64,000 bases of DNA, taken from Candidatus Sulfotelmatobacter kueseliae (GTDB lineage: Bacteria; Acidobacteriota; Terriglobia; Terriglobales; Acidobacteriaceae). The stretch is from positions 14,314 to 78,313 of the forward strand of contig OMOD01000122.1 of the NCBI GenBank assembly GCA_900290255.1, in the 5' to 3' direction. How positions within the stretch are numbered: position 1 is the stretch's first letter; the number at the start of each line of letters is the position of its first letter. Below, piece by piece: positions 343-41,018 of this stretch. The notes under the pieces were generated by a model. That model ran no database searches, was not told where the DNA came from, and saw only the letters and a program-made list of their open reading frames with translations. Made by a program: the position numbers and the translations under genes.

Positions 343-852
343 GTGAATTCCAGAGCACTAGACACTCCAAGTAGCAGAGTTTTCGTCGCAAGAGCCATGG
401 GTCGCACCCTTGATGAGGATGCCTTTCACCGGATGATCTCAATCGAGCGGCGGAGAGCCGCCCGATCGCGCAAGTCGTTTCTACTGATGCTGCTGGATAT
501 GGGTGACCATTCGACTTCGAAGAATCAGGGGACCAGCCTCCGAAAGATTTTGTCTACATTGGGCCTGATACTGAGGGAAACGGATGTCACCGGTTGGTAC
601 AAGGGAGATTCCGTCGTCGGAGTAATGTTTACGGAGATCACTCTGGATGACGAAAACTTCATTTTCGCCACGATGATGAGCAGGGTAAGCCAAGCGCTGA
701 AGAGTCGTCTGTCCCCTCAGCAGTTTAACCAGATTGGTATCTCGTTCCACCTGCTCCCAGAAGTGCGGGACCATGGGCTCGCCTCACGAAGTCTCTATCC
801 GGCGGTGTATTCCGTTTCCGCTCCCAACAGTCGCACAGGAACATCACTGTAG
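343..852 (+). CDS. Stand-alone degenerate GGDEF-like domain protein, paralogue of the N-terminal domain of the priming transferase at 4012-5145
   Basis: ORF 295..852; likely GTG start at 343 behind AGGAGA (331-336). FLLMLLDMG...[22 protein letters not shown] follows the GGDEF-domain strand pattern. RxxD (RETD, 574-585) lies 5 residues before the GG[DE]EF position, which reads KGDSV (601-615). Clearly alignable to residues ~40-165 of ORF 3964..5145. Confidence 0.6.
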   Translation: MNSRALDTPSSRVFVARAMGRTLDEDAFHRMISIERRRAARSRKSFLLMLLDMGDHSTSKNQGTSLRKILSTLGLILRETDVTGWYKGDSVVGVMFTEITLDDENFIFATMMSRVSQALKSRLSPQQFNQIGISFHLLPEVRDHGLASRSLYPAVYSVSAPNSRTGTSL

Positions 853-1041: not shown

Positions 1042-2304
1042 TTGGGTCTTAGGGAGGTCTGCAGAGAGGTGAAACCAACTGTCCTGGTTGCGGCGACTTC
1101 ACATTGGTTTCCAACGTGTCGGCTTGCGATGGCCTTGGCCAACACCGGTTGCATCGTTGAGGCGGTTTGTCCCCCTCGACATCCTCTTTGCAGGACGAAC
1201 GCTGTGCGGCGAATTCACACTTACCGTGGATTGGCACCACTGAGCTCGCTGGCGAGTGCGATCGCCTCAGCAGAGCCGGATTTGATCATTCCGGGCGACG
1301 ACCTTTGCACGCGTCACCTGCACCAGCTCCATCGCAAGGAATCTCGGCGCGGGAAGAGGGGGGCCAAAACTTGTGAGCTGATTGAACGTTCGTTTGGTGC
1401 ACCCGAGAGTTTTCCCATCGTGTACGAGAGAGCTGCGTTCATGCGGCTTGCCGAAGAAGAGAACGTGCGGGTGCCAAAGAGCGGCGTCATTACGAATCTC
1501 GACGAGCTGAGGTGCTGGACAACCCAGGTGGGCCTTCCCGTCGTACTCAAAGCAGACGGCACTTCGGGTGGCGACGGTGTGAGAATCGCCCGTACGCTTG
1601 AAGAGGCCAAACGTGCTTTACGGAAGCTGCAAGCTCCGCCGCTCCTGGCACGCGCGTTGAAGCGAGCCCTGGTAGACCGCGACAGAACCTTGATATGGCC
1701 TTCACTCCTGCGTCAGCGCTCTGTTGTCAGTGCACAGACATACGTTCCAGGCCGGGAGGCAACAAGCACGGTCGCTTGCTGGAAGGGTACCGTTCTGGCC
1801 GCCCTTCATTTCGAGGTGATCAACAAGAGGTATGCCGTGGGGCCAGCGACGGTGATGCGCTTGGTTGAAAACGCCGAGATCTCATCCGCTGTCGAGAAAA
1901 TGGTCCGCCGGCTCAATCTTTCGGGCGTGCACGGGTTCGACTTCATGCTTGAGGCGAAGACGGGAAATGCCTACCTTATCGAGATCAATCCTCGAGCGAC
2001 GCAGGTCGGACACTTGGCTCTGGGGCCTGGTCGCGATCTTCCCGCAGCTTTGTACGCAGCCATATCTGGAATTGGAGTCCGGCCGGGACCGAAGGTGACA
2101 GAAAAAGATACGATTGCTCTGTTTCCGCAGGAGTGGGGGAGGGATCCAGCTAGCGCCTTTCTGTGTTCCGCGTACCATGACGTTCCTTGGGACGAACCCG
2201 AACTGATTCGGGCTTGTGTCCGTCGCCGCCGCAAACTGAGCACTTCGAGAACTGAGGCAAACTGGGACCCAGCTTTATCCCCAGTTCGCGCACCCCGCGT
2301 ATGA
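1042..2304 (+). CDS. ATP-grasp domain protein (carboxylate-amine/thiol ligase type)
   Basis: 420-aa ORF (alternative GTG start 1069). GLPVVLKADGTSGGDGVRIARTLEEAKRAL and NAYLIEINPRATQ are typical ATP-grasp motifs. Confidence 0.75.
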   Translation: MGLREVCREVKPTVLVAATSHWFPTCRLAMALANTGCIVEAVCPPRHPLCRTNAVRRIHTYRGLAPLSSLASAIASAEPDLIIPGDDLCTRHLHQLHRKESRRGKRGAKTCELIERSFGAPESFPIVYERAAFMRLAEEENVRVPKSGVITNLDELRCWTTQVGLPVVLKADGTSGGDGVRIARTLEEAKRALRKLQAPPLLARALKRALVDRDRTLIWPSLLRQRSVVSAQTYVPGREATSTVACWKGTVLAALHFEVINKRYAVGPATVMRLVENAEISSAVEKMVRRLNLSGVHGFDFMLEAKTGNAYLIEINPRATQVGHLALGPGRDLPAALYAAISGIGVRPGPKVTEKDTIALFPQEWGRDPASAFLCSAYHDVPWDEPELIRACVRRRRKLSTSRTEANWDPALSPVRAPRV

Positions 2305-2485
2305 AAGCTCGGCGCAAGGCTACGCTGCAAGCGGTCGATCGCGAAACCGAATGAATCTCAATATGGGTAACGAGCCAGCCGCCAGACAACTCGAGAAAGA
2401 GGTGGAACCATTCTTGGAGCACGTACTCCCACTTCGCTCCGGGCATGGCGATGCGCGCTGGAGTACCCGCCGGTTCCTGCGAGTG

Positions 2486-3919
2486 ATGAAGTTCGGCGGA
2501 ACCTCGGTTGGCGACGCGGCCTGCATCCGGAAGGTGATAGAAATCATCCGGCGGGGGTCAGCGGAAAGTGACCTTGTGGTAGTTGTGTCCGCGATGAGTG
2601 GTGTGACCAACCAGCTGATCGAGACGGCTACCCAATCAGAAGCCGGCGATCGCGGATGCGCGACGAAGATTCTCGAAGACCTGCGTGCGCAGCACGACAC
2701 GGCTCTCAAAGCGTTGATTCATCCGGGCCCGGAGCGTGATCGCATCGCTCGCAAGATACGAGAGCTTTTTGAACAGTGTGAACGTTGGTGCGCAAGCACG
2801 GCTGTGCTGGGCCAACTGACGCCGCAGATGCGGGACTCGATATCCAGTCTTGGGGAGCGCCTCTCGGCTCCTCTGGTTGCTGTTGCTCTGGCTGCGCAGG
2901 GCGTGGCCAGCGAAGCGGTCGACGCCACTCAGTTGGTGGTCACGGATGGGTATCACGGCGCCGCTGACCCTAAGATGGACCTCACCCGCGAGCGCTGCGA
3001 AGCACGCCTCAGGCCGTTGCTGCAACAGGGCGTCATCCCCATCGTGACTGGCTTCATTGGAGCAACAGAGGATGGTGTGCTCACAACTCTTGGCCGCGGC
3101 GGTTCGGACTATTCCGCAACCATCCTCGGAGCGGCTCTCGAGGCGGATGAAGTCACGATTTGGACAGATGTGGACGGTATGCTCACGGCTGATCCGCACC
3201 TGGTGCCTAGTGCGAGCACCATTCCCGAAATTTCCTACCGCGAGGCGGCCGAGCTTGCTTATTTCGGGGCCAAAGTTCTGCACCCGAAGACTCTGTATCC
3301 CGTCATGCAAAAGCGTATTCCGGTCTGGATCCGGAACACCTTCGCATCGGAAAAAGCGGGAACAAAAATCACGCCCGGGGGGCATGCAGCCAGCGTGGGA
3401 GCGAAGGCTCTTACCGCGGTCAGCGAGGCAGCGCTGATCACTCTTGGTGGACCTGTTCTCAGCGGTGTGCCCGACGTTGTCGGCCGGGCGTTGGCGGCCG
3501 CTGCATCGGTTCGGACTGACGTGCTGATGAGCTGCCATTCCCCCTCTTGCAACCACGTCTGTCTGGCCGTGGCTGCTGCGTCGGCTCAGAAGACGGTTGA
3601 GGCGTTGCGTCGCGAATTCGCGCGAGACGCGAAACATGATGGTGCAGAGCATGTGACTGTCGATTCGACCGTTGCGATCCTCACCGTGGTAGGGCACAAC
3701 CTGCACCTTGTTCGGGGGATTGTCGGACGCGCGGTTGATGAGTTGAGCCGGGAGAACGTGAACGTGATCGCGACTGCACATGGATCGATGGAGCGGAACG
3801 CTTCATTCGTAGTCGCCAGAAAAGACATCCAGACCGCACTGGTTACCACTCACCGGGAGTTCCAACTCTGCGTTTTGAACTTGCCGCAGGAAAGCAGATC
3901 CGAAGCACAAGCTCTGTAG
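2486..3919 (+). CDS. lysC: Aspartate kinase
   Basis: ORF 2351..3919; canonical start MKFGGTSVGD at ATG 2486. VVVVSAMSGVTNQLIE, TTLGRGGSDYSATILGAAL and WTDVDGMLTADP are aspartokinase signatures. The C-terminal ACT-like region carries VVGHNL...ISRENVNV. Confidence 0.9.
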   Translation: MKFGGTSVGDAACIRKVIEIIRRGSAESDLVVVVSAMSGVTNQLIETATQSEAGDRGCATKILEDLRAQHDTALKALIHPGPERDRIARKIRELFEQCERWCASTAVLGQLTPQMRDSISSLGERLSAPLVAVALAAQGVASEAVDATQLVVTDGYHGAADPKMDLTRERCEARLRPLLQQGVIPIVTGFIGATEDGVLTTLGRGGSDYSATILGAALEADEVTIWTDVDGMLTADPHLVPSASTIPEISYREAAELAYFGAKVLHPKTLYPVMQKRIPVWIRNTFASEKAGTKITPGGHAASVGAKALTAVSEAALITLGGPVLSGVPDVVGRALAAAASVRTDVLMSCHSPSCNHVCLAVAAASAQKTVEALRREFARDAKHDGAEHVTVDSTVAILTVVGHNLHLVRGIVGRAVDELSRENVNVIATAHGSMERNASFVVARKDIQTALVTTHREFQLCVLNLPQESRSEAQAL

Positions 3920-4011
3920 AGGCACCGCCATCCCCCAATGAGCCCAATTAACGGGTTCGCCAAGTGATTCCGACTCGCGCCAAAAGCGAAGGGAAAGCAA
4001 GAGAGGGAGTA

Positions 4012-5145
4012 GTGAATCTACGTCGATCAGATCGGACCCTGACACTGTCAGAGCCACCAAGAAGCCGGGAATGTCTGGTGCTCGACGAAGCATCGTTCCG
4101 GAGCATGATCGCGCTGGAGAGAAAGCGAAGCGAGCGCTCTGGAAAGCCAGTGCTGCTGATGCTGCTGGATGCCGGGAGTAGTCTGTCCTTCGAAAGGAAC
4201 GAAAGAGTGCTCAGCAAGATTCTTTCTGCACTTTCGTTGTCCACGCGAGACACCGACGTTACCGGCTGGTACCAGAACCACTCAGTGGTGGGCGTAATGT
4301 TCACTGAAATGGGCTCGGATGATCATGGCGAAATTCTCGGGACCATGATGAGTCGCGTGAGCCAGACTCTGCGAGACAACTTGAGCCTGGAGAAGTTCAG
4401 CCAGATCAGCATTTCCATGCACGTGTTTCCCGAAGACTGGGAGCACGAGACTTCGTCGGCCAACCTCGCTTTATATCCGGATCTTGAGCATCGCGAAAGG
4501 ACGCGAAGAGCCGTCCTCGTGATCAAGCGGCTGATGGACATCGTGGGCAGCGTGACCGCGATGGTGCTCTTCTTTCCCATATTCTTTCTGGTTGCGTTGC
4601 TGGTCAAAATGGGGTCCAAGGGGCCGATTTATTACAAGCAGGAACGCTTGGGACAATTTGGAAGGCCATTCACATTCCTGAAGTTCCGATCGATGTATGT
4701 GAACAACGATCACGAGATTCATCGCGAATTCATGAAGCACGTGATCAACGGAGACCACGACGGAGAAGTGGAGGGCGAGGGCAAGAAGGTCTACAAGATG
4801 ACGAACGATCCGCGCATTACGCCGATCGGCCGTTTCCTGCGCCGCACCAGTCTGGATGAGCTGCCGCAGTTCCTTAACGTTCTGCGGGGAGATATGTCGT
4901 TGGTCGGACCACGACCGCCGATCGCGTACGAATGCCAGGAATATGACGTCTGGCACCGGCGCCGCGTTCTCGAAGTCAAGCCTGGAATTACCGGGCTTTG
5001 GCAAGTGACCGGGCGCAGCCGGGTGCGCTTCGACGACATGGTGCGACTGGACCTCCAATACGTACGGACGTGGTCATTGTGGCTCGACATTAAGATCCTG
5101 CTCAAAACCCCGAGGGCCGTGCTGTTCGGCGGGGACGCATTCTAG
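4012..5145 (+). CDS. Priming phosphoglycosyl transferase (bacterial sugar transferase family, undecaprenyl-phosphate hexose-1-phosphate transferase type) with an N-terminal degenerate GGDEF-like domain
   Basis: ORF 3964..5145; likely GTG start 4012 behind GAGGGAG. C-terminal half: [27 protein letters not shown] (single hydrophobic helix), [64 protein letters not shown]-terminal ~125 aa are paralogous to 343-852, with RDTD (4246-4257) and QNHSV in place of GG[DE]EF. Confidence 0.9.
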
Positions 5146-7661: not shown

Positions 7662-8855
7662 ATGAAAACTTCCGGAGCATTACTTCCAATGACACAAGCA
7701 AGAGTCGCGACGTCGCCCCGGGTGGAGAATACTGCTGCCACGGTCAACCGCTTCGTCAATTTGGCCGTACGCGGACTGGTGCCGATGTTCGACCGGCAGC
7801 GGCAGTTGTTCTGCTATCGCTTGAAGAAGACTGACCAGGGCATGGTTCGGGAAGACATATCTCACCGCTACACGGCAATGACCCTGCTCGGACTTCATCA
7901 GCTGGGCCAAGCCGGAACGGTTTCACCGTTCGATACGGAGTCGATTCTCCAGACGTTGTTGTCCGACGTTTCATGGGTCGACAACATCGGAGACCTCGGC
8001 GTGCTTCTGTGGCTTTGTGCTGTGGTTTGCCCCCAGCGATTGTCCGCGCTCGAACCTCGTCTGCGACTTGAGACAGCACTGAAACGCTTTCAAGGTGCAA
8101 GGCAGGGCGCGACCATGGAACTTGCGTGGTTCCTGACCGGCCTCTCTTATTGGGGACAGGCGTATCCGGAAAAATTGCCACGGTTGGAAGCCCTCGCTTT
8201 CAAAACATACGACACTATGACGAGGAACCAGGGCGACCGCGGCTTCTTTGGGCACCTGTCAACTTCTCGCAGTCTTTCGGGCCTAGCTCGAGGCCGCATC
8301 GGCAGCTTTGCCGACCAGGTGTATCCCATCTATGCTATGGCGCAGTTCTCCAAAGCCTATCAGCATGAGGAAGCCGCCGATCGCGCCTTGAAGTGCGCGG
8401 TTGGAATCTGCGAGGTGCAGGGCCCACTGGGACAGTGGTGGTGGCATTATGATGCTCCCGGAGGACGGGTCACGGAGGGATACCCGGTTTTTTCCGTTCA
8501 TCAGCATGCGATGGGGCCAATGACGCTGTTCGGGCTCGGCGAAGCCATCAATCGCAACTTCGATGAGTGGATTTACAAAGGACTGCATTGGATCAACTCG
8601 GACAATGAACTCGGTTATGACATGGAGGACGCTTCGCGGTGCGTGATTTGGCGGTGCATCTTCCGCTCGCGGCGCTCTTTGATGAAATATTTCAGAGCCG
8701 GGTTTGGCCGCCATTCCGACACAGTCCAGCATCCGCACCCGGGTGACTTGAAGATTCTGTTCGAGTGCCGCCCCTATGAACTGGGCTGGCTGCTTTACGC
8801 TTTCTCCAGTCGGGCCCGGAAACATAGTCCAAGAGCGGACGGGCCCACAGATTAG
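7662..8855 (+). CDS. Hypothetical protein, possibly alpha/alpha-toroid-like
   Basis: 397-aa ORF in the operon, ATG start, no recognisable motif. Repeated aromatic/Gly-rich helical segments (AWFLTGLSYWG, QWWWHYD, HQHAMGP) only hint at a toroid fold. Confidence 0.5.
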   Translation: MKTSGALLPMTQARVATSPRVENTAATVNRFVNLAVRGLVPMFDRQRQLFCYRLKKTDQGMVREDISHRYTAMTLLGLHQLGQAGTVSPFDTESILQTLLSDVSWVDNIGDLGVLLWLCAVVCPQRLSALEPRLRLETALKRFQGARQGATMELAWFLTGLSYWGQAYPEKLPRLEALAFKTYDTMTRNQGDRGFFGHLSTSRSLSGLARGRIGSFADQVYPIYAMAQFSKAYQHEEAADRALKCAVGICEVQGPLGQWWWHYDAPGGRVTEGYPVFSVHQHAMGPMTLFGLGEAINRNFDEWIYKGLHWINSDNELGYDMEDASRCVIWRCIFRSRRSLMKYFRAGFGRHSDTVQHPHPGDLKILFECRPYELGWLLYAFSSRARKHSPRADGPTD

Positions 8856-11059: not shown

Positions 11060-12646
11060 ATGAGTCGCATATTTCCCCCAGCTCAATTAGCCCTCATCCT
11101 CGCCGTCGTGCTCACGGGAAGTGCTTTCGCCGGAACGTATTACATCGCAGCCAACGGCAGTGATTCCAACAATGGAACGTCCAAGACGACACCCTGGGCA
11201 CATCTGCCGGGCATGGCAACCTGGACCGGAAGCCATACCCCAGTCGCTGGCGATACCTTCATTCTGCGCGGCTGCGACGTGTGGTCGAACGCCAACTTCT
11301 CAATCTTGTGGTCTTGGAGCGGGGCAACGGGGAATCGCATCCAAATCGGCGGACTCGACAAGACCTGGTACAACAGCACGAACTGTCCCTCGGGATGGAA
11401 TCGGCCAGTGTTTAACGCAGGCAATGCGGTGATGAACGGTACCGAATGCTCCGGAGACAGCAGAGGGACCAACACAAACAGTTTTATCTACAACACGGGA
11501 GCACACAACTTCTGGTCCTGGATTGAATTGAAAGGACTGTATTGGGCATCGGGCTGTGGGGGAATTGCAGACACCCATGCAGTTGCTGGAGACGTGATCT
11601 ACGACAACCTCTATGTCCACAAGTGGTCAGTCAACTTGTCTACCGCAGGCGACATATCAGGTTTTTTCACCATTCCCGGAGGAACTGGAGCCTGCAACAG
11701 CAATGCGGGGGCCGTGAATTGTACGGTGCAATATCTGGTGCAAGATAATTCGGATAGTCCTAACGGAACCAACCCCAACCAACGTTCCGGTGGTGGCGTA
11801 ATGGCGATGAACACAATCAACAGCATCTTCAGCTACATGACCAATGCCATTAAGCCTTACACCAACGGGGAAATTGGCGGGAACAACATCTCAAACGTCG
11901 CGGGCGGATTTGATGGCACGAACCACCCGAACTGCATCGAAACCATTCAGGCGAGCGGGAATAATACTTACTACTTCCACGACAACTGGGTACACGGCAA
12001 CTACTCCTGCCAACTATTCACGATTGGTAACCCCGGCGAGATTGACTATGCGTGGAACAACATCTTCGATTGCTCTGGGGGCGGTGTTGGCAACAACTGC
12101 CCCGCCTTGGAGCAGGGCAGTGGTGACCTCCACTCGCTTTTTTTCTGGAACAACACCATATTTAACGCCAATGGCAACTACTGCATGACGCTGGGCAGCA
12201 ACAACGCCTACCAGAAGGATTTTCAGGTCCGAAATAACCATTGCATCACAACGAACACGGGCGGAGTTGTCTTTGGCCTCAACAGCCCCAGCCCCGACAG
12301 CGGAGCGAATGCGCCAGTCACGGATCATAACTACATCGAGAGCGCATCCCAAGCAGCCAGCAACGGGTATACCAGTTCGCAACCCTACAACTACTCGCCC
12401 ACGTCTGCCTCTAGTCCCACCGTCGGAGCAGGGATCAACTTGACATCCTCTTGGCCGGGGGCATATTCGACCAACGACACGAACTATGCGTGTACCGAAC
12501 AGACAGTGAACGGAGTCGTCCAGTCGGTGTGCCCTGCTCGATCTTCGGTCAGCCGACCCAGCAGTGCGGCTTGGGACGCAGGAGCGTACTTCTTTCCCGT
12601 AGGGACGCCGAATCCTCCGACAGGCCTGGCGGCCGTCGTGCAATAG
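11060..12646 (+). CDS. Secreted right-handed beta-helix (pectate-lyase-fold) protein, candidate polysaccharide lyase/hydrolase
   Basis: Signal peptide MSRIFPPAQLALILAVVLTGSAFA|G. The mature N-terminus TYYIAANGSDSNNGTSKTTPWAHL is typical of parallel beta-helix proteins. The sequence is Asn/Gly-rich and periodic throughout. Confidence 0.65.
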   Translation: MSRIFPPAQLALILAVVLTGSAFAGTYYIAANGSDSNNGTSKTTPWAHLPGMATWTGSHTPVAGDTFILRGCDVWSNANFSILWSWSGATGNRIQIGGLDKTWYNSTNCPSGWNRPVFNAGNAVMNGTECSGDSRGTNTNSFIYNTGAHNFWSWIELKGLYWASGCGGIADTHAVAGDVIYDNLYVHKWSVNLSTAGDISGFFTIPGGTGACNSNAGAVNCTVQYLVQDNSDSPNGTNPNQRSGGGVMAMNTINSIFSYMTNAIKPYTNGEIGGNNISNVAGGFDGTNHPNCIETIQASGNNTYYFHDNWVHGNYSCQLFTIGNPGEIDYAWNNIFDCSGGGVGNNCPALEQGSGDLHSLFFWNNTIFNANGNYCMTLGSNNAYQKDFQVRNNHCITTNTGGVVFGLNSPSPDSGANAPVTDHNYIESASQAASNGYTSSQPYNYSPTSASSPTVGAGINLTSSWPGAYSTNDTNYACTEQTVNGVVQSVCPARSSVSRPSSAAWDAGAYFFPVGTPNPPTGLAAVVQ

Positions 12647-12710: not shown

Positions 12711-13940
12711 ATGACCGGCAACCCGGCTCGCATTCGAGTGCTGTACAGCTTTCCGAATAAACTCGGCGGGGAGCGCATCTGCTACACAGCTTGGCAGCAG
12801 GTTAACGGACTTGCAGCGGCTGGAGCCGATCTGCTTGTGTTCCCGGCTTCGACCTGCCGGCTGGTCCCCTCTGCCGCAGTAGTGCGACCCACTTTAGCGC
12901 GGGGAAGACTAAGGATACCTTATAGGCTTCTCGGCAATGACCGTGCGCACGCCCTGCACGACTACATCGTGGCGCACCGGATCGAGAAGCTTGCGAGCCA
13001 GATTGACATTGTTCACACATGGCCATCCGGCGCACGCCGGACGCTCGAAGCTGCAAAGAGATTAGGGATTCCGACCGTGCTTGAGAGGTGTAACTCCCAT
13101 ACCCGTTACGTATACGAAGTTGTACAGAAGGAGTGCGAACGCGTGGGGGTTTGCCTTCCGCCAGGCTCCGAAGCTGCGTTCAATCAAAAGGTCCTTCAAA
13201 TCGAAGAAGAGGAGTTTCGACTGGCCGACCGACTTTTGTGCCCCTCAGAGTTCGTGGTCAAGACCTTCTTGGACAAGGGATTCCCACGTGATCGACTTGC
13301 GAGGCACATCTATGGTTTTGACGACAAGGTCTACCACCCCGCACCGAGTTATCAGCCAAGTCAGACCGGGCTGAGAATGCTGTTCGTCGGTTTCTGCGCG
13401 GTCAGGAAAGGAGTCCACTATGCATTGGAGGCGTGGCTCAAGTCACCGGCACATCGTGACGGCACCTTTATGGTCGCCGGAGAGTTCTTGCCCGAATACG
13501 CCAGGAAGCTCGGCCCGATGCTTTCACACCCCAGCGTCCGGGTACTAGGTCAGCGGAATGACATACCCGAACTAATGCGTAATAGCGACGTCTTGGTACT
13601 GCCGAGCATAGAAGAGGGTTTCGGACTCGTGTGCACGGAGGCTATGGGCAGTGGATGCGTTCCGCTCGTCTCAGATGCCTGCACCGATGTCTGCAAACAC
13701 ATGCAGAACTCATTAGTGCACCATGTGGGGGACGTTGAGGCTCTGACGCAGCACATCACACTTCTGCACAACGACCGGATTCTTCTCCAAAGGTTGCGCT
13801 CGACCGGATTGAATCTGAGAAACACCCTTACGTGGAACGTTGCAGGCGTCAAGCTTCTAGAGGTGTATCGCGAGACGATCAGTATGTACTCAAAGAACAG
13901 AGACCAGAGCGCCGCTTCTGGTGAGACTTTGAATGTCTAA
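12711..13940 (+). CDS. GT4 (GT-B, group 1) glycosyltransferase
   Basis: ORF 12663..13940; ATG at 12711. SDVLVLPSIEEGFGLVCTEAMGSGCVPLVSD is the E-x7-E region. Confidence 0.85.
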   Translation: MTGNPARIRVLYSFPNKLGGERICYTAWQQVNGLAAAGADLLVFPASTCRLVPSAAVVRPTLARGRLRIPYRLLGNDRAHALHDYIVAHRIEKLASQIDIVHTWPSGARRTLEAAKRLGIPTVLERCNSHTRYVYEVVQKECERVGVCLPPGSEAAFNQKVLQIEEEEFRLADRLLCPSEFVVKTFLDKGFPRDRLARHIYGFDDKVYHPAPSYQPSQTGLRMLFVGFCAVRKGVHYALEAWLKSPAHRDGTFMVAGEFLPEYARKLGPMLSHPSVRVLGQRNDIPELMRNSDVLVLPSIEEGFGLVCTEAMGSGCVPLVSDACTDVCKHMQNSLVHHVGDVEALTQHITLLHNDRILLQRLRSTGLNLRNTLTWNVAGVKLLEVYRETISMYSKNRDQSAASGETLNV

Positions 13941-15393
13941 CAGGGCTAGGACATTTCGCAACGTCATTTACAGCAGCCTCACCAAGGGGACAACCCTGAT
14001 TTGTATCGCCGTGACAAGCTCGGTGGTGGCCAGAAACCTTAGTCCGTCCGACTATGGAGTCATTGGATTTGCCACCATCATTATCGGATTCTTGAGCCAC
14101 TTCAGCGATGTTGGGGTGGCAAGCGCCGCTATTCGCCGTCCCGCGCTCGATCAGCACAGCCTCCGAGCTGCATTCACTCTGAAGATCATCCTGAGTTTCG
14201 GCGCATGTACTGCGGCTTTTCTAATCGCACCGTTCGCGCACCATTTTTTCGAGCATCCGCAAACCGCCAATGTGGTCCGGGTCTTGGCCGTGGAGTTTCT
14301 GGTAAGCACGATCGGATTCATGTCTCTGGTGACGCTAATAAGGGAACAGAACTACCGTGCCTTGGTGATTCCAGGGCTGGCAAGCGCCATTGTTCGGTGC
14401 GTCCTCGCGGTCACGCTGATTCTGTGGGGATGGAAGTACTGGGCGGTCGTCTGTGCCGACGTCGGCGGGGTTCTGGCCGCCAGCGTTGCCACACAGCTCG
14501 CGAGAAGAATCACCATCCGTTTTCGGTTCGATTTGACTGATTGGCAGGAGTACCTGCGGTTCGGCGTGCCTTTGCTCGGAAGCGGAGTCCTGATTTTTCT
14601 GGTAATGAACCTGGACAATTTTCTGGTTGGCTCCCGCCTGGGAAGCACCCAATTGGGCTACTATGCTCTGGCATTTACTTGGGGGAGCTTCATTTGCGGC
14701 CTGCTTTACGACACCGTCAACAACGTGCTGTTTCCGGCATTTTCCGCTCTGCAGAATGACGCCGCCGCAATGCGACGATGGTATCTCAAGACGATCGACC
14801 TGATCGCATTTGTCGCCGTCGTAGCCAACACCGCGCTACTCGCCAATACGCACTTTTTTCTTGTGACCTTTCTGGGCAAAGGCACGGACAAGTGGGTCCC
14901 GGCGGCTATGGCTCTTAAGATTCTTTGCGTCTACGGAATCGTACGTGCAATAACTGAGCCGCTCAGCAACTGCGTGATGGCCCTCGGGAAAACCAAGTCA
15001 TTGCTGCACGCAAATGCTTTAGCCGGCGGCCTTGAGCTACTTCTGTTCTTGGTTGTATTGCGAACCGGCAGAATTGAACTGGTTGCGGGCGCTGTGTTCG
15101 TCGCATACGTGAGCCAATCCATCATCTATCTGCCATTCTTGCGTCGAAATCTTGATATCGGGACCGGAGAGATCGCCGCGCAGTTGTGGCCGGTGATTCC
15201 CGCTCTCGCCGGCGGTTACATCATCACATCCCTTCTGCCGGTTTCGCTGGGAGGCACGTTCTTTACCCTTGCTTGCCGGGGATTGTTCAGCGCCTTGGTC
15301 GCCGCGTCGATCCATGGACTATGTACCCGCTTCCGATGTTTCCAGGAAGCCGGTGGAATGATTTCCCAAAACCTCGCTCGCGTGCGGGCGTAG
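13933..15393 (+). CDS. wzx: Wzx-type polysaccharide flippase (MOP superfamily)
   Basis: 486 aa and multi-span hydrophobic throughout. The N-terminus NVIYSSLTKGTTLICIAVTSSVVARNLSPSDYGVIGF is typical of polysaccharide biosynthesis protein/flippase families. Overlaps the upstream gene by 8 nt. Confidence 0.75.
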   Translation: MSNRARTFRNVIYSSLTKGTTLICIAVTSSVVARNLSPSDYGVIGFATIIIGFLSHFSDVGVASAAIRRPALDQHSLRAAFTLKIILSFGACTAAFLIAPFAHHFFEHPQTANVVRVLAVEFLVSTIGFMSLVTLIREQNYRALVIPGLASAIVRCVLAVTLILWGWKYWAVVCADVGGVLAASVATQLARRITIRFRFDLTDWQEYLRFGVPLLGSGVLIFLVMNLDNFLVGSRLGSTQLGYYALAFTWGSFICGLLYDTVNNVLFPAFSALQNDAAAMRRWYLKTIDLIAFVAVVANTALLANTHFFLVTFLGKGTDKWVPAAMALKILCVYGIVRAITEPLSNCVMALGKTKSLLHANALAGGLELLLFLVVLRTGRIELVAGAVFVAYVSQSIIYLPFLRRNLDIGTGEIAAQLWPVIPALAGGYIITSLLPVSLGGTFFTLACRGLFSALVAASIHGLCTRFRCFQEAGGMISQNLARVRA

Positions 15394-18669: not shown

Positions 18670-20082
18670 TTGGAACCGGAGCATCTACATTTCGGAGGCG
18701 GCACAGCTGATACCGTCCTCAACCCCATTGTTCTGCTGTTGGTTCTCATCGTGGGGGTACTCATCCTGGTCTGGCCGCGCAGCAAAGCGATCGCACCATT
18801 CATCGCTGCCTCTATTCTTATTCCGCTGGACCAGGTACTTGTGGTCGGTGGGCTCCACTTTCCAATGCTGCGCCTCCTCGCGCTTTTCGGCATCGTCAGG
18901 CTTATACGGGAGAAAATCTCATCGAGGGCTCGGATCTTCAGTGGCGGGGTCAACAAGATCGATCTTGCGGTCATTTTGTTTGCAACATCCACTGCCCTCG
19001 CCGGAATCCTGCTGTTTCAAGAAGTGGGAGCCGTGATCTTTCAGCTCGGAAATATGTACACAATCTTTGGTATCTATTTTCTACTGCGATTTCTGGTCCG
19101 CGATAGAGAAGACATTATCCGCGTAGTCCGGACACTTGCATGCGTCGCCGCGCCAATCGCTGTCGTCATGATTTGGGAAATAGCAACGGGGCACAATCCA
19201 TACGCAGTACTGGGAGGGGCGCGGGCTTCGTTCTACGCAAACCTCATGGAGCGCGATGGCAAATTTCGCGCGCTGGGATGTTTCGGGCATCCGATCCTGG
19301 CCGGAACGTTCGGTGCGATCGTGCTTCCACTATTCGTTTTGCTGTGGCGCGAGGGCAAGAAGCACCACACACTCGCCGCAGTCGGAATCGCTTCAACAGC
19401 GGTGATCGTCGGAACATCGAACTCCAGCACACCCATCCTGGCATATGTAGGTGGTGTGCTGGCTCTGTGTTTATGGCCGCTGCGCAACTGGATGCGAGCC
19501 ATACGGTGGGGCATCGTTTTTATCCTGGTCTGTGTGCATATTGTCTGGAAGCACCCAGTATGGTACCTCGTCGCCAAGGTCGACATCTCGGGAGGGTCGT
19601 CATCGTGGCACCGGTTTGCCCTGGTCGATCAATGCATCCGACACTTTGGAGATTGGTGGCTGATTGGTGTTAAGTCGACGGAGGCTTGGGGCTGGGACAT
19701 GTGGGATACAGCGAACCAATACGTGGGTACTTGCGATTCTTCCGGTCTGCTTCCGTTTTTGTTATTCATTGCCATTCTCGTATATGGATTTAAGTACCTT
19801 GGAAGGGCCAGAAGAGTTGCCAGTGACAAGAAGCAGAAGTTGTTCTTTTGGGCGCTGGGGGCTTCGCTCTTCGCGAATGTCGTCTCCTTCTTTGGCATCT
19901 CGTATTGGGACCAAACCCAGGTGGTTTGGTATGGACTGCTCGCATCAATCTCTGCATCTGTTGTGATTCGTTCAGAGTCTCCGCAATTACCCCATGAAAG
20001 CGGTAACTGGGCCGAACGAGCCTCGAAATTCACTACTGACGCTGAAACCGAAGCAGTCGAACCAGCCTCGGCCCAGACTTAG
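18670..20082 (+). CDS. O-antigen ligase/polymerase-like (Wzy-type) integral membrane protein
   Basis: 470 aa with about 10+ hydrophobic spans, a large loop region and a TTG start. Position between GTs in a locus with a Wzx. Confidence 0.7.
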   Translation: MEPEHLHFGGGTADTVLNPIVLLLVLIVGVLILVWPRSKAIAPFIAASILIPLDQVLVVGGLHFPMLRLLALFGIVRLIREKISSRARIFSGGVNKIDLAVILFATSTALAGILLFQEVGAVIFQLGNMYTIFGIYFLLRFLVRDREDIIRVVRTLACVAAPIAVVMIWEIATGHNPYAVLGGARASFYANLMERDGKFRALGCFGHPILAGTFGAIVLPLFVLLWREGKKHHTLAAVGIASTAVIVGTSNSSTPILAYVGGVLALCLWPLRNWMRAIRWGIVFILVCVHIVWKHPVWYLVAKVDISGGSSSWHRFALVDQCIRHFGDWWLIGVKSTEAWGWDMWDTANQYVGTCDSSGLLPFLLFIAILVYGFKYLGRARRVASDKKQKLFFWALGASLFANVVSFFGISYWDQTQVVWYGLLASISASVVIRSESPQLPHESGNWAERASKFTTDAETEAVEPASAQT

Positions 20083-22258: not shown

Positions 22259-23497
22259 ATGACAGATACAGTTATTGTTGGGGCAGGTCCTTACGGACTC
22301 TCGATCGGAGCCCACCTTCGGCAATCCAGAGTCCCATTTCGCATTTTCGGTCGTCCGATGGACAGCTGGCGGTCGCACATGCCGAAAGGCATGCTGCTCA
22401 AGTCGGACGGATTTGCCTCGAACATTTCTGATCCCAAGGGTCATTTCACCCTAGGGAAGTTTTGCGCAGAACGGGGAATCCCGTACGCCGACACGGGCAC
22501 CCCAGTTCGGCTCGAGACATTCACTGAGTACGGACTTGCGTTCAAAGAGCGCGTCGTGCCCGAGCTCGAGGATAAGCTCGTTATCAACATCGAGCACACA
22601 CCCGAAGGCTACTTGCTTCGACTCGATGATGGCAAACTCGTGAAAGCTCGCAGGGTGGTGCTTGCGGTTGGAATCACCCATTTCGAATACGTGCCCGACG
22701 TCCTGGCACATCTGCCGGCCGAATATCTCTCACACAGTGCCCGCCATAGTGAGCCTGGAGTTTATAGCGGGCGCAACGTCGTGGTGATCGGCGGCGGCTC
22801 TTCCGCGCTCGACTGGGCGGGACTACTGCACGAGGCGGGGGTGAACGTGCAGTTGGTCGCGCGTCAGACATCGCTGAAGTTTCATGGAAAGCCGACTGGC
22901 AAGCCCAGGTCACTCTGGAGGAGAATTCAGAAGCCTAAAACCGGTCTTGGTCCGGGCTGGCGATCGAGCTTCTATGCAAATGCTCCGGCCCTGTTTCACC
23001 ATTTGCCCGAGAGCTTGCGATTGGAGATCGTCCAACGGACGTTGGGGCCGTCGGGAGGATGGTTCATCAAGGACAAGGTAATGGGCAAGGTGCCTCTTTG
23101 GTTGGGTTACACCATTGAGAATGCCGAGGTCCAGGGGCGCCAGGTGCATCTTCGTCTGCGGGCGCAAGACGGAACCGCAAAAGAGATACTGGCCGATCAC
23201 ATCATCGCGGCGACTGGCTACAAGGTTGATCTTGAGCGGTTGACTTTCCTCAGTCCGGACATCCGTTCGAAGGTGAAGACCGTAAAGAACACCCCGGTGC
23301 TTTCCACTACCTTTGAATCATCCGTGCCCGGCCTCTATTTTGTGGGGATCGCTGCGGCAAACAGCTTTGGCCCTGTCATGCGGTTTGCCTTCGGCGCTGA
23401 GTTCGCCGCTCGGACAATTGCTCGAGCGATTTCAAAGTCGCCCTATCGGGATGCGGTTTCTGACTCCGTTTCCAGCGTGGCGACAACGGCCAGATGA
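22259..23497 (+). CDS. Two-dinucleotide-binding flavoprotein, class-B monooxygenase-like (FAD + NAD(P)H)
   Basis: VIVGAGPYGLSIGAHL (FAD GxGxxG), VVVIGGGSSALDWAGLL (second Rossmann), IIAATGYKVDL (ATG motif). Paralogue of 29313-30563. Confidence 0.7.
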   Translation: MTDTVIVGAGPYGLSIGAHLRQSRVPFRIFGRPMDSWRSHMPKGMLLKSDGFASNISDPKGHFTLGKFCAERGIPYADTGTPVRLETFTEYGLAFKERVVPELEDKLVINIEHTPEGYLLRLDDGKLVKARRVVLAVGITHFEYVPDVLAHLPAEYLSHSARHSEPGVYSGRNVVVIGGGSSALDWAGLLHEAGVNVQLVARQTSLKFHGKPTGKPRSLWRRIQKPKTGLGPGWRSSFYANAPALFHHLPESLRLEIVQRTLGPSGGWFIKDKVMGKVPLWLGYTIENAEVQGRQVHLRLRAQDGTAKEILADHIIAATGYKVDLERLTFLSPDIRSKVKTVKNTPVLSTTFESSVPGLYFVGIAAANSFGPVMRFAFGAEFAARTIARAISKSPYRDAVSDSVSSVATTAR

Positions 23498-23536
23498 ACT
23501 GGTATTGCCCGTGCTTTTCTTGAGTCGACCCGAGGC

Positions 23537-24814
23537 ATGAAGAGAGAAACCATCGCAATTCACGTCGGCTACGACGGCGATCCCACGACGAAGGCCGTGG
23601 CGGTACCCATCTATCAGACCGTCGCGTTTGAGTTTGACAGTGCGGAGCATGGAGCGGCGCTGTTCAACCTGGAGGTTCAGGGGAACATCTACACCCGGAT
23701 CGGCAACCCAACCAACACGGTGCTGGAGAAGCGCGTGGCTGCACTGGAAGGGGGAGTTGACGCGCTGAGCGTGAGTTCCGGGATGGCTGCGATCGAGTAT
23801 TCCCTGATTAACATCGCCGAAGCCGGGAACAACGTGGTTTCGCTCCCGCAGCTCTATGGCGCCACATATACCCTCTTGGCGCATATTTTCCCAAAGCGGG
23901 GAATTGAATCGCGCTTTGCGAAAAGCGACAGCCCCGACGACGTAGAGAAACTGATCGACGAGAAAACACGGGCAGTTTACTGCGAAAGCGTCGGAAATCC
24001 TGCAGGCAACGTTGCCGACATCGAGGGACTGGCGAAAGTTGCTCACAAGCACGGAGTTCCGCTTGTCGTGGACAACACCGTGGCTACACCCATTCTGCTG
24101 CGGCCGATCGAATACGGTGCTGACGTCGTGGTGCATTCCATGACCAAGTTCATGGGAGGGCACGGCACCAGCATCGGCGGAATGATCGTGGATAGCGGAA
24201 AGTTTCCCTGGCGCCGATATCCCGACCGCTTCTACATGCTGAATCGGCCCGAAATTGCCTACCACGGAGTGGTCTACGTCGATCACTACGGTGAAGCCGC
24301 TTTCGTTGCACGCTGCCGAACCGTGTGCCAGCGCAACACCGGCGCGACGATGTCCCCGTTCAACGGATTTCTATTTCTACAAGGAGTTGAAACCCTCGCC
24401 CTTCGCGTCGAGCGTCACGTGGAGAACGCCAGCAAAGTCGCGGAGTTCCTGCGCAGCCATCCGCGGGTGGCATGGGTGAACTACGCAGGCTTTCCTGACA
24501 ATCCGTTGTACCCAATGGCTCAGAAATACCTTGGTGACAAGCGTTGTTCGCTGCTCACGTTCGGAGTGAAAGGCGGGTTCGAAGCGGGAACAAAGTGCTT
24601 CAACGCGCTGCGTTTGTTCAAACGGATGGTCAATATGGGAGATGCTAAATCGCTCTCGTGCCATCCTGCTTCCACCACTCACCGGCAGTTGACTCCAGAA
24701 GAGCAGGCGAAAGTGGGTGTGACGCCTGAGATGCTCAGGCTGAGCGTGGGTATTGAGCACATTGACGACATTCTGGAAGATCTGGCTCAAGCGCTAGAGG
24801 CCACGACGAAGTAA
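23537..24814 (+). CDS. metY: O-acetylhomoserine sulfhydrylase/aminocarboxypropyltransferase family PLP enzyme
   Basis: Full-length Cys/Met-metabolism PLP enzyme: AVAVPIYQTVAFEF, HSMTKFMGGHGTSIGG (PLP Lys), GDAKSLSCHPASTTH. Confidence 0.9.
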   Translation: MKRETIAIHVGYDGDPTTKAVAVPIYQTVAFEFDSAEHGAALFNLEVQGNIYTRIGNPTNTVLEKRVAALEGGVDALSVSSGMAAIEYSLINIAEAGNNVVSLPQLYGATYTLLAHIFPKRGIESRFAKSDSPDDVEKLIDEKTRAVYCESVGNPAGNVADIEGLAKVAHKHGVPLVVDNTVATPILLRPIEYGADVVVHSMTKFMGGHGTSIGGMIVDSGKFPWRRYPDRFYMLNRPEIAYHGVVYVDHYGEAAFVARCRTVCQRNTGATMSPFNGFLFLQGVETLALRVERHVENASKVAEFLRSHPRVAWVNYAGFPDNPLYPMAQKYLGDKRCSLLTFGVKGGFEAGTKCFNALRLFKRMVNMGDAKSLSCHPASTTHRQLTPEEQAKVGVTPEMLRLSVGIEHIDDILEDLAQALEATTK

Positions 24815-24856
24815 TGGTTCACAAATGGAAGCAAGCACCTTGTGGGGAGGTGTGAT

Positions 24857-40766: not shown

Positions 40767-41018
40767 ATGGAAGAATTGTTGACCAAAGTGCGGACGGCCT
40801 TTCAATCAGCGTTCAGCATTGATCCGCAGACCGTTACTATTGACACTGTACCAAGCGACGTTCCGGCTTGGGACTCCATGGGACATGTCACGCTGGCTAG
40901 TAGCCTCGAACAAGCCTTCGGCTTGACTTTCGATGTAGACGACCTGATGGCGATGGAGGACGTGAAATCAATCTGCCGGGTCGTACAATCCAAGCTAGGT
41001 CAGGTTCAACGTGCGTAA
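40767..41018 (+). CDS. Acyl carrier protein
   Basis: 83 aa; DVPAWDSMGHVTLASSLEQAFGLTF contains the DSxx attachment motif. Confidence 0.8.
   Translation: MEELLTKVRTAFQSAFSIDPQTVTIDTVPSDVPAWDSMGHVTLASSLEQAFGLTFDVDDLMAMEDVKSICRVVQSKLGQVQRA

What the first reader, a model, noticed from the sequence alone, without database searches (positions are those of the whole stretch)
4012..4460. Priming phosphoglycosyl transferase fused to a degenerate GGDEF-like domain that keeps the RxxD (I-site) motif
The N-terminal ~125 residues of the sugar transferase read [34 protein letters not shown]...[25 protein letters not shown]. This has the same order of elements as a diguanylate-cyclase GGDEF domain. In PleD the corresponding stretches are ...ALLIDIDFFK... 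and ...RAIDLPCRYGGEEFVVIM.

The catalytic GG[DE]EF is replaced by QNHSV, so cyclase activity should be lost. An RxxD motif (RDTD, 4246-4257) sits exactly five residues upstream of that position, which is the spacing of the c-di-GMP inhibitory site. Degenerate GGDEF domains with a retained I-site are established c-di-GMP receptors; PelD of the Pel polysaccharide machinery is one example.

Here such a domain is fused directly to a small single-helix phosphoglycosyl transferase. That would put second-messenger control at the committed priming step of a Wzx/Wzy pathway. I am not aware of a characterised example.
Basis: partly seen in the sequence, partly recalled or inferred. Interest (0 to 1): 0.8.

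Follow-up and report, generated by a model that had tools for sequence, protein, structure and literature searches.

The report
Dead GGDEF sensor fused to priming sugar-transferase
The enzyme that starts synthesis of an acidobacterial exopolysaccharide carries a catalytically dead relative of a c-di-GMP-making domain that keeps every c-di-GMP-binding (I-site) residue, so the biofilm second messenger may switch this pathway at its first step, though binding has not been tested.

Summary
The gene (GTG 4012..5145, +, 377 aa; Ca. Sulfotelmatobacter kueseliae SPF40166.1) is a small monotopic phosphoglycosyl transferase (PGT; PF02397, 232 bits). It is preceded by a ~120-residue cytoplasmic domain that no Pfam or NCBIfam model detects at threshold.

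Four lines of evidence tie that domain to GGDEF. The top 22 Foldseek PDB hits to an AlphaFold model are all GGDEF domains. Profile-profile alignment gives 91% probability, against at most 1.1% for shuffled controls. GGDEF is the top sub-threshold Pfam family, in 21 of 111 relatives. UniRef names the standalone paralogue a GGDEF domain-containing protein.

The catalytic site is gone: GG[DE]EF reads QNHSV and the segment holding PleD N335 is deleted. All four I-site residues are nearly invariant over ~250 homologous domains: R79/D82 (RxxD, 4246-4257), R115 (PleD R390, PelD R402) and R39 (PleD R313).

The family is large (2,419 clusters at 50% identity). Every fused member I checked is fused to a PGT, and some carry two tandem copies.

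Best explanation: an I-site c-di-GMP receptor that controls the priming PGT. Binding and regulation are inferred, not shown. I rate it a new variant of a known kind.

The parts
4012..5145 (+). Fusion gene: N-terminal degenerate GGDEF-like domain, one membrane helix, then the small monotopic PGT catalytic domain (377 aa, GTG start).
   Evidence: ORF. This exact 377-aa product is in public gene calls; NCBI SPF40166.1 is in the same 90% cluster. At least 120 full-length homologues at 67-100% identity.
4081..4431 (+). Core of the degenerate GGDEF-like domain, residues 24-140: alpha0, beta1, alpha1, beta2, beta3, alpha2, beta4.
   Evidence: AlphaFold2 core pLDDT 73-89. Foldseek top 22 PDB hits are all GGDEF. 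hhalign 86-91% probability. PF00990 is the top sub-threshold family, in 21 of 111 relatives.
4117..4140 (+). Arginine-rich alpha0 motif ERKRSERS (residues 36-43). R39 aligns with PleD R313, the I-site residue contributed by the neighbouring GGDEF domain.
   Evidence: hhalign register. E36 246/248, R39 246/248, R42 242/248. The only PDB profile hit (GcbC, 5euh) aligns here. Role of R313: PMC7288161.
4168..4170 (+). D53 at the end of beta1, aligned with the PleD metal-binding D327. The following segment, which holds PleD N335, is deleted.
   Evidence: hhalign. The position reads D in 160 and E in 71 of 252 domains.
4246..4257 (+). RxxD motif RDTD (R79, D82), aligned with the primary I-site residues PleD R359 and D362.
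   Evidence: hhalign register. R 250/253, D 250/253; T81 247/253.
4273..4287 (+). QNHSV in the beta2-beta3 hairpin, in place of GG[DE]EF. The cyclase active site is lost, and the hairpin residues vary within the family.
   Evidence: positions 88-91 are variable, while the flanking G85 and W86 are invariant.
4354..4356 (+). R115 in the helix after beta3, aligned with PleD R390 (PelD R402), the third primary I-site residue.
   Evidence: hhalign. R 202 plus K 33 of 237. Role of R390 and R402: PMC7288161, PMC8461298.
4540..4605 (+). The single hydrophobic helix ([22 protein letters not shown], residues 177-198), taken to be the re-entrant membrane helix of a small monotopic PGT. It places the N-terminal domain in the cytoplasm.
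   Evidence: Hydropathy. Beginning of the PF02397 match. Topology is inferred from what is known of PglC-type PGTs.
4525..5124 (+). PGT catalytic domain (Bac_transf) with the SLDELPQ (4849-4869) and GPRPP (4906-4920) motifs intact.
   Evidence: PF02397 E 4.5e-69, 232 bits against a cut-off of 27. TIGR03025 291.8 bits against a cut-off of 295.55. Motifs.
343..852 (+). Standalone paralogue of the same domain (169 aa, no hydrophobic segment). About 50% identical to the fused copy, with ERRRAARS (445-468), RETD (574-585) and SRVS (679-690).
   Evidence: PF00990 E 0.19. NCBI SPF40163.1 shares its 90% cluster, under the UniRef name 'GGDEF domain-containing protein'. This position is conserved in about 35 related loci.
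1042..3919 (+). ATP-grasp gene (1042-2304) and aspartate-kinase-family gene (2351-3919). They lie between the two copies of the domain and are syntenic with them in related genomes.
   Evidence: Pfam and NCBIfam. Synteny.

Best explanation
The N-terminal ~120 residues of this priming PGT are a minimal, catalytically dead GGDEF domain. It has kept only the allosteric I-site and works as a cytoplasmic c-di-GMP receptor.

An intercalated c-di-GMP dimer would bind R79/D82 (RxxD) and R115 of one domain. As in product-inhibited diguanylate cyclases, it would also bind R39 of a second domain. That second domain could be another fused protomer, the standalone paralogue encoded 3 kb upstream, or the second copy in the tandem-domain variants.

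This nucleotide-dependent pairing or re-orientation, next to the membrane helix, would change the activity of the PGT catalytic domain. Use of undecaprenyl phosphate by this Wzx-dependent exopolysaccharide pathway would then be gated at its first committed step. I expect the effect to be activation at high c-di-GMP, but the direction is not known.

Shown by computation: the GGDEF fold and homology, loss of the active site, near-invariance of the four I-site residues, fusion to PGTs in every fused member checked, and conserved synteny. Inferred: c-di-GMP binding, pairing of domains, and the effect on PGT activity.
For: 1. Fold. The AlphaFold2 model has core pLDDT 73-89. The 22 best Foldseek PDB matches are all GGDEF domains, best E 1.1e-5, and PelD is also matched.
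2. Sequence homology. hhalign gives 86-91% probability, E about 1e-6, over 120-123 columns; controls give at most 1.1%. PF00990 is the most frequent non-PGT Pfam family, in 21 of 111 relatives, best E 0.0032. The only PDB profile hit is the GGDEF domain of GcbC. The UniRef name of the paralogue's cluster is 'GGDEF domain-containing protein'.
3. Register. R79/D82 align with PleD R359/D362, R115 with R390, R39 with R313, and Q88/N89 with G368/G369. These four residues define the I-site (PMC7288161). PelD needs the equivalent R367, D370 and R402 to bind c-di-GMP (PMC8461298).
4. Conservation over about 250 domains: R79 250/253, D82 250/253, R115 as R or K 235/237, R39 246/248. The former active-site hairpin varies. 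RxxD is not needed for the fold: only 5 of the 8 GGDEF domains in my reference alignment have it.
5. Functional link. All 10 fused family members scanned against Pfam are fused to PF02397 PGTs. Tandem-copy variants keep RxxD in both copies. The standalone paralogue is syntenic with the fused gene in about 35 genomes.
6. Precedent. Regulation of a priming PGT by a small signalling domain is known from EpsW~P and EpsZ (PMC12802240).
Against: - No binding data exist and none can be computed here.
- The fused protein gets no Pfam or NCBIfam GGDEF hit.
- The invariant block is wider than an I-site needs (T81, G85, W86, Y87, G94, F97-E99). That could reflect a protein-protein surface or a different ligand.
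- The domain appears to end after beta4 and to lack the last helix and strand of canonical GGDEF domains.
- The full-length AlphaFold2 model is poor (pLDDT 60.7, pTM 0.54), so it says nothing about contacts between the domains.
- No canonical GGDEF gene lies in the 64-kb window or within 6 kb of the 80 related loci. I did not check whether these genomes make c-di-GMP at all.
- Small monotopic PGTs are reported to work as monomers (PMC12802240), so a dimerisation mechanism is not self-evident.
Confidence: 0.55

Rival explanations
1. The domain is a degenerate GGDEF fold that no longer binds any nucleotide. It serves as a constitutive protein-protein module that dimerises the PGT or docks it to other proteins of the machinery: the standalone paralogue, the ATP-grasp or aspartate-kinase proteins, or Wzx. 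The conserved arginines and aspartate would form the protein interface or internal salt bridges.
For: The invariant surface extends well beyond RxxD (T81, G85, W86, Y87, G94, F97-E99). The family occurs as a syntenic standalone-plus-fused pair and as tandem copies, which suggests domain-domain pairing. From my own knowledge, degenerate GGDEF domains that act as interaction modules are known; one title seen is PMC9061725.
Against: The residues that are nearly invariant include exactly the four that contact c-di-GMP in PleD, in the right register (PMC7288161). RxxD is dispensable for the GGDEF fold: 3 of the 8 reference domains lack it. Its retention after loss of catalysis therefore points to ligand binding.
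Confidence: 0.2
2. The domain is a ligand sensor, but for something other than c-di-GMP. Candidates are GTP, (p)ppGpp, another cyclic dinucleotide, or a nucleotide-sugar or pathway intermediate, which would give metabolic feedback on the priming step.
For: The domain is very divergent from characterised receptors, with 11-20% identity to PDB GGDEF domains. An invariant tryptophan (W86) replaces PleD R366 next to the old active site. The cluster carries unusual amino-acid-related enzymes whose products could feed back: ATP-grasp, aspartate kinase and a FemAB-like protein.
Against: The nucleotide (A-) site is dismantled. The N335 segment is deleted, GG[DE]EF is lost and the hairpin varies within the family. 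The conserved residues match the I-site, and from my own knowledge the I-site is only known to bind c-di-GMP.
Confidence: 0.12
3. The resemblance to GGDEF is fold convergence or very distant palm/ferredoxin-like ancestry. On this reading the RxxD match is a coincidence and the domain is an unrelated PGT accessory domain of unknown role.
For: No hit above the curated Pfam or NCBIfam thresholds. The PDB profile hit has E 0.89. Generic ferredoxin-like folds appear lower in the Foldseek list.
Against: Four independent methods converge on GGDEF specifically and in one register. Shuffled controls fail. Four separate I-site positions coincide, not only RxxD.
Confidence: 0.05

Closest known systems
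PelD of the Pseudomonas aeruginosa Pel system (degenerate GGDEF I-site receptor)
   Same: A catalytically dead GGDEF domain. In PelD the RxxD motif plus a downstream arginine (R367, D370, R402) bind dimeric c-di-GMP and switch on exopolysaccharide synthesis after translation (PMC8461298). The equivalent residues here are R79, D82 and R115. PelD structures are among the Foldseek matches.
   Different: PelD is a separate protein with four transmembrane helices plus GAF and GGDEF domains, and it acts in a synthase-dependent pathway through a PelDEFG complex. Here the domain is much smaller (about 120 aa, no GAF, apparently ending after beta4). It is fused directly to the priming PGT of a Wzx-type pathway, and a soluble paralogue sits beside it.
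Product-inhibited diguanylate cyclases (PleD, WspR, DgcZ): the I-site and I'-site cross-link
   Same: The same four-residue site: RxxD, an arginine in the next helix, and an arginine from the partner domain (PleD R359, D362, R390, R313; PMC7288161). All four are conserved here in the same register.
   Different: Those proteins are active cyclases, and the I-site inhibits their own catalysis. Here there is no cyclase site, so the output must be the fused PGT.
EpsW~P and EpsZ of Myxococcus xanthus
   Same: A small cytoplasmic signalling domain controls the priming monotopic PGT of a Wzx/Wzy pathway after translation, gating use of undecaprenyl phosphate at the first step (PMC12802240).
   Different: EpsW is a phosphorylated receiver domain acting in trans on a large monotopic PGT by promoting its dimer. 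Here the domain is GGDEF-like, is fused in cis to a small monotopic PGT, and the proposed signal is a nucleotide.
HfsJ of the Caulobacter crescentus holdfast pathway
   Same: c-di-GMP binds a glycosyltransferase that is crucial for synthesis of the holdfast polysaccharide adhesin and activates it (PMC9980756).
   Different: HfsJ is not the priming PGT. From my own knowledge it has no GGDEF-like domain.
Small monotopic PGT fusions catalogued by O'Toole, Imperiali and Allen (PNAS 2021)
   Same: Small monotopic PGTs fused to extra domains, including regulatory ones such as receiver domains, as summarised in PMC12802240.
   Different: I could not read that paper, so I do not know whether this N-terminal domain was listed. 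Because Pfam does not detect it, a Pfam-based survey would probably have left it unannotated.

Membership tests
GGDEF domain (Pfam PF00990, diguanylate-cyclase fold) | GGDEF three-dimensional fold | tested here: met
   AlphaFold2 model. The Foldseek top 22 PDB hits are all GGDEF; best is 6khu at E 1.1e-5, TM 0.56/0.71, rmsd 2.6 A over 125 columns. The last helix and strand appear to be missing.
GGDEF domain (Pfam PF00990, diguanylate-cyclase fold) | Score above the Pfam gathering threshold (23.8 bits) | tested here: not met
   No hit for the fused protein. The paralogue scores 11.9 bits, E 0.19. 21 of 111 relatives hit only below threshold, best E 0.0032.
GGDEF domain (Pfam PF00990, diguanylate-cyclase fold) | Homology detectable by profile-profile comparison | tested here: met
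   hhalign 90.9% probability, E 1.2e-6, 120 columns. Reversed and shuffled controls give at most 1.1%.
Active diguanylate cyclase | GG[DE]EF motif and the GTP- and metal-binding residues (PleD N335, D344, E370) | tested here: not met
   The motif reads QNHSV and is variable in the family. The N335 segment is deleted. Only the D327 equivalent remains, as D or E.
Degenerate-GGDEF I-site c-di-GMP receptors (PelD type) | RxxD five residues upstream of the GGDEF position | tested here: met
   RDTD at 4246-4257 aligns with PleD R359-D362. Each residue is kept in 250 of 253 domains.
Degenerate-GGDEF I-site c-di-GMP receptors (PelD type) | Additional arginine in the following helix (PleD R390, PelD R402) | tested here: met
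   R115 aligns with R390. It is R or K in 235 of 237 domains.
Degenerate-GGDEF I-site c-di-GMP receptors (PelD type) | Demonstrated c-di-GMP binding | not testable with these tools
   Needs DRaCALA, ITC or MST, or at least a co-folding prediction with the ligand.
PelD orthologue | Architecture of four transmembrane helices, GAF and GGDEF, in a pel operon | tested here: not met
   No GAF domain, one hydrophobic helix, fused to PF02397, and no pel genes nearby.
Small monotopic phosphoglycosyl transferase (PglC-like, PF02397) | Complete Bac_transf catalytic domain above threshold | tested here: met
   232 bits against a cut-off of 27, profile positions 1-178 of 179.
Small monotopic phosphoglycosyl transferase (PglC-like, PF02397) | One N-terminal membrane helix only, with the catalytic Asp-Glu and PRP motifs | tested here: met
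   One hydrophobic region at aa 168-198. SLDELPQ and GPRPP are present. The role of these motifs is from my own knowledge of PglC.
NCBIfam TIGR03025 EPS_sugtrans and TIGR03013 XrtA/PEP-CTERM sugar transferase | Score above the curated cut-off | tested here: not met
   TIGR03025 scores 291.8 against 295.55, just below the cut-off and only over its C-terminal half. TIGR03013 scores 152 against 393.
Wzx/Wzy-dependent polysaccharide locus | Wzx flippase, Wzy polymerase, and Wza/Wzz export proteins | tested here: inconclusive
   Wzx is at 13933-15393 (PF13440, E 7.7e-60). ORF 18670-20082 has about 9 hydrophobic segments but no family hit, so it is only a candidate Wzy. Poly_export and Wzz/GNVR genes lie upstream of the cluster in relatives, but that region is off the left end of this window.

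The most novel reading that the evidence does not exclude
This would be a large, so far uncharacterised family of minimal 'I-site-only' GGDEF domains. Its members would bind a c-di-GMP dimer and pair with one another, fused copy with fused copy or with the soluble paralogue. That pairing would directly switch a monotopic priming PGT. It would be the first case of second-messenger control at the initiating, undecaprenyl-phosphate-consuming step of a Wzx/Wzy-type polysaccharide pathway. In the one genome scan I ran, all 80 best loci were Acidobacteriota.
Probability: 0.45. Interest if true: 0.8.

Novelty: new variant of a known kind. Interest (0 to 1): 0.65.

Why it matters
How Wzx/Wzy-dependent pathways are regulated after translation is described as incompletely understood. 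Direct c-di-GMP control is established mainly for synthase-dependent systems such as cellulose, alginate, Pel and PNAG (PMC12802240, PMC8461298).

A c-di-GMP receptor built into the priming PGT would gate the shared undecaprenyl-phosphate pool at the committed step. It would extend the list of c-di-GMP effectors to a new enzyme class.

It would also give a first function to a protein family of about 2,400 clusters at 50% identity. That family is common in soil and peat Acidobacteriota, and current domain libraries do not annotate it. The hypothesis can be tested directly with a 120-residue soluble domain and three point mutants.

Tried and rejected
- **Direct Pfam and NCBIfam scans of the fused protein and its N-terminal 147 residues.** No GGDEF hit even at E up to 10. 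Only the paralogue and some relatives give sub-threshold hits.
- **Profile search of PDB sequences.** A single marginal hit (GcbC GGDEF, E 0.89), covering beta1 only.
- **Full-length AlphaFold2 model from 76 fused homologues.** Low confidence (pLDDT 60.7, pTM 0.54), so it says nothing about domain packing. Coordinates are not returned, so I could not measure distances within the I-site.
- **Search for canonical GGDEF genes in the window and within 6 kb of the 80 related loci.** None found. This is neutral for a diffusible messenger.
- **Literature.** No paper combined GGDEF or c-di-GMP with a PGT fusion, and none linked PEP-CTERM loci to c-di-GMP in a relevant way. The O'Toole 2021 PNAS paper and the Whitney 2012 PelD paper are not held.
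- **An error in my synteny script.** The 'PGTcat' reference was cut out of frame, so those labels are meaningless. That the matched genes are fusions rests instead on ORF lengths of about 370-420 aa and on Pfam.
- **Considered and rejected.** This is not a PelD orthologue (wrong architecture), not an active cyclase (site destroyed), and not a member of TIGR03013 (score far below cut-off).
Full report
**1. What is in the sequence**

The ORF covering the finding runs 3964..5145 on the + strand. Homologues start 'MNVRR', and the 377-aa product from GTG 4012 is the form found in public gene calls. NCBI SPF40166.1, 'Undecaprenyl-phosphate galactose phosphotransferase' of Candidatus Sulfotelmatobacter kueseliae, is in the same 90% cluster. 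I number residues from 4012.

Residues about 172-371 are a complete Bac_transf domain (PF02397, E 4.5e-69, 232 bits). The best NCBIfam match is TIGR03025, exopolysaccharide polyprenyl glycosylphosphotransferase, at 291.8 bits against a cut-off of 295.55. There is a single hydrophobic region at aa 168-198, and the SLDELPQ and GPRPP motifs are intact. This is therefore a small monotopic PGT.

In front of it lie about 165 residues with no Pfam or NCBIfam hit. RDTD is residues 79-82, bases 4246-4257, as stated. QNHSV is residues 88-92.

**2. Is the N-terminal domain GGDEF-like?**

Four independent tests point to GGDEF.

- **Structure.** An AlphaFold2 model built on 111 relatives has a core pLDDT of 73-89 and the order alpha0, beta1, alpha1, beta2, beta3, alpha2, beta4. 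In Foldseek against the PDB, the 22 best matches are all GGDEF domains. They include a Thermotoga diguanylate cyclase (6khu, E 1.1e-5, rmsd 2.6 A over 125 columns), MorA, DgcR, DosC, SiaD and GcbC. PelD appears at E 1.4e-2.
- **Profile-profile alignment.** I checked the PleD GGDEF sequence against the PDB and took six E. coli GGDEF domains from MG1655. hhalign of the family (99 sequences) against this alignment gives 90.9% probability, E 1.2e-6, 120 columns in local mode, and 86% in global mode. Reversed or column-shuffled templates give at most 1.1%, E at least 0.048.
- **Pfam, member by member.** Scanning the 111 relatives one at a time, PF00990 is the most frequent family apart from the PGT domain: 21 members, best E 0.0032, always below the curated cut-off. 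The window's own paralogue gives E 0.19.
- **Other sequence evidence.** A profile search of PDB sequences returns one marginal hit, the GGDEF domain of GcbC, aligned on beta1. The UniRef entry in the paralogue's cluster is named 'GGDEF domain-containing protein'.

I conclude that the domain is a divergent, shortened GGDEF homologue. It is not a member of PF00990 by the curated threshold.

**3. Register and key residues**

The hhalign register gives these equivalences.

| This protein | PleD | Role in PleD |
|---|---|---|
| D53 | D327 | metal-binding aspartate |
| R39 | R313 | I-site arginine from the neighbouring domain |
| R79, D82 | R359, D362 | RxxD |
| Q88, N89 | G368, G369 | GG of GGEEF |
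| R115 | R390 | I-site arginine in the next helix |

The segment that holds PleD N335 is deleted. According to PMC7288161, the inhibitory site of GGDEF dimers is formed by exactly R359, D362 and R390 of one domain and R313 of the neighbouring domain, and it binds a c-di-GMP dimer. According to PMC8461298, PelD needs R367, D370 and R402.

Across about 250 aligned domains from the two searches, conservation is as follows.

| Residue | Conservation |
|---|---|
| R79 | 250/253 |
| D82 | 250/253 |
| R115 | R 202 + K 33 of 237 |
| R39 | 246/248 |
| G85 | 253/253 |
| W86 | 251/252 |
| Hairpin positions 88-91 | variable |

RxxD is not needed for the fold, because only 5 of my 8 reference GGDEF domains have it. 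Its near-invariance in a family that has lost catalysis therefore argues for a retained ligand site. This is inference. No tool here can show binding.

**4. The family and its context**

An exhaustive HMMER search of 1.84 billion cluster representatives finds 2,419 proteins at E up to 1e-3 and 1,560 at E up to 1e-10. Most of the best 150 are proteins of 120-200 aa holding the domain alone. The 10 longer proteins I scanned against Pfam are all fusions to PF02397. Three of them carry two tandem copies of the domain in front of the PGT (P0111, P0137, P0158), and both copies keep RxxD. At least 120 full-length fused homologues exist at 67-100% identity. Sources call them only 'sugar transferase' or similar, and their precomputed Pfam annotation is PF02397 alone.

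In one genome per species, 247 places encode a relative that carries the two conserved peptides. The best 80 are all Acidobacteriota: Terriglobia, Acidobacteriaceae, Ca. Sulfotelmatobacter and Acidiferrales.

The window holds a second, standalone copy at 343..852. It is 169 aa, about 50% identical to the fused copy, has no hydrophobic segment, and carries ERRRAARS, RETD and SRVS.

The gene order is standalone domain, ATP-grasp, aspartate kinase, domain-PGT, DUF354, FemAB-like, and so on. It recurs in about 35 of the 80 loci. In relatives it is preceded by genes for a NusG-like protein, a sigma-54 response regulator, Poly_export (Wza), Wzz/GNVR and an AAA ATPase.

Downstream in the window lie glycosyltransferases, a deacetylase, a Wzx flippase (13933-15393), WbsX, a UDP-GlcNAc 2-epimerase, and a protein with about 9 hydrophobic segments and no family assignment that could be Wzy.

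**5. How it most likely works**

Because the domain precedes the single membrane helix of a monotopic PGT, it is cytoplasmic, on the same side as the catalytic domain. This follows from what is known of PglC-type PGT topology.

The simplest reading is an I-site c-di-GMP receptor that modulates the PGT. All four residues of the cross-linking site are kept. The domain occurs as a fused-plus-soluble pair and as tandem repeats. Both facts suggest that a c-di-GMP dimer bridges two domains, as it does in product-inhibited cyclases, and that this pairing changes PGT activity.

The direction of the effect, the partner and the binding itself are not shown. My confidence is about 0.95 for GGDEF homology, about 0.75 for a regulatory role of the domain on the PGT, and about 0.55 for c-di-GMP as the signal.

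Rivals are a nucleotide-free interaction module (0.2), a sensor of another ligand (0.12) and fold convergence (0.05).

**6. Comparison with known systems**

- **PelD.** It works like PelD, a dead GGDEF whose I-site binds c-di-GMP and switches on polysaccharide synthesis. It is not a PelD orthologue: it has no GAF domain, no four-helix membrane anchor and no pel operon.
- **Diguanylate cyclases.** It shares the I-site with them but has no active site.
- **EpsW and EpsZ.** It parallels the recently described activation of a priming PGT by a signalling domain (PMC12802240). That paper states that post-translational control of Wzx/Wzy pathways is poorly understood and that c-di-GMP control is characterised for synthase-dependent pathways.
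- **HfsJ.** c-di-GMP activation of this holdfast glycosyltransferase is a precedent in a different enzyme (PMC9980756).

I found no paper describing a GGDEF-like domain on a PGT. I could not read the survey of small monotopic PGT fusions.

**7. Verdict**

The structural interpretation is supported and strengthened. The functional interpretation is plausible but untested.

It is a new variant of a known kind: a degenerate-GGDEF I-site receptor in a new, minimal form, attached to a new target enzyme. It belongs to a large family without Pfam or NCBIfam coverage, although an automatic UniRef name already hints at GGDEF for the standalone paralogue. Interest: 0.65.

Noticed in passing
window 343-852 (+): A standalone, soluble paralogue of the GGDEF-like domain (169 aa, RETD at 574-585) lies 3 kb upstream of the fused gene. 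NCBI SPF40163.1, in its 90% cluster, is annotated as a hypothetical protein, while the UniRef name is 'GGDEF domain-containing protein'. Its position is conserved in about 35 related genomes.
   Followed up: yes
window 1042-3919 (+); L034:4351-7068: An ATP-grasp gene and a full-length aspartate-kinase-family gene (TIGR00657, 367 bits against a cut-off of 209) sit between the two copies of the domain inside a polysaccharide locus. In some relatives the kinase, the GGDEF-like domain and the PGT form one continuous ORF of 876-905 aa (P0122, L034, and the 876-aa gene). I did not resolve whether these are true triple fusions or assembly artefacts, nor what the kinase does here.
   Followed up: partly
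P0111 (628 aa), P0137 (558 aa), P0158 (505 aa): Variants carry two tandem GGDEF-like domains in front of the PGT. Both copies keep RxxD.
   Followed up: partly
window 22259-25924 (+) and 29313-30563 (+): Genes resembling methionine-pathway enzymes (Cys_Met_Meta_PP, homoserine O-succinyltransferase) and two flavin monooxygenase-like genes (Pyr_redox_3 / Lys_Orn_oxgnase) are embedded after the glycosyltransferase block. This may indicate an amino-acid-derived modification of the polymer.
   Followed up: no
window 41011-44916 (+) and 47576-55654 (-): There is an AMP-binding, LuxE-like and LuxC-like acyl-activation/reduction set. On the other strand is a 2,692-aa hybrid NRPS-PKS with the domains A, PCP, KS, AT, ACP and C. 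Together they look like a separate lipid or lipopeptide biosynthetic cluster next to the polysaccharide locus.
   Followed up: no
window 18670-20082 (+): A 470-aa protein with about 9 hydrophobic segments has no Pfam or NCBIfam family. It lies among glycosyltransferase genes and is a candidate Wzy-type polymerase.
   Followed up: partly
window 7662-8855, 11060-12646, 25976-27310, 46127-47200 (+): Four sizeable ORFs have no Pfam hit; the first three also have no NCBIfam hit (46127-47200 was not scanned against NCBIfam). Two of them (7662-8855 and 11060-12646) are conserved in the related loci.
   Followed up: no
L086:231-7884 and the 42-kb JGI contig: In relatives the conserved cluster continues upstream of the standalone domain with genes for a NusG-like protein, a sigma-54 response regulator, Poly_export (Wza), Wzz/GNVR and an AAA ATPase. 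This resembles PEP-CTERM/exosortase-type EPS loci. The FemAB-like gene of the window hits TIGR03019 below its cut-off. This region lies off the left end of the window, and no exosortase was identified.
   Followed up: partly
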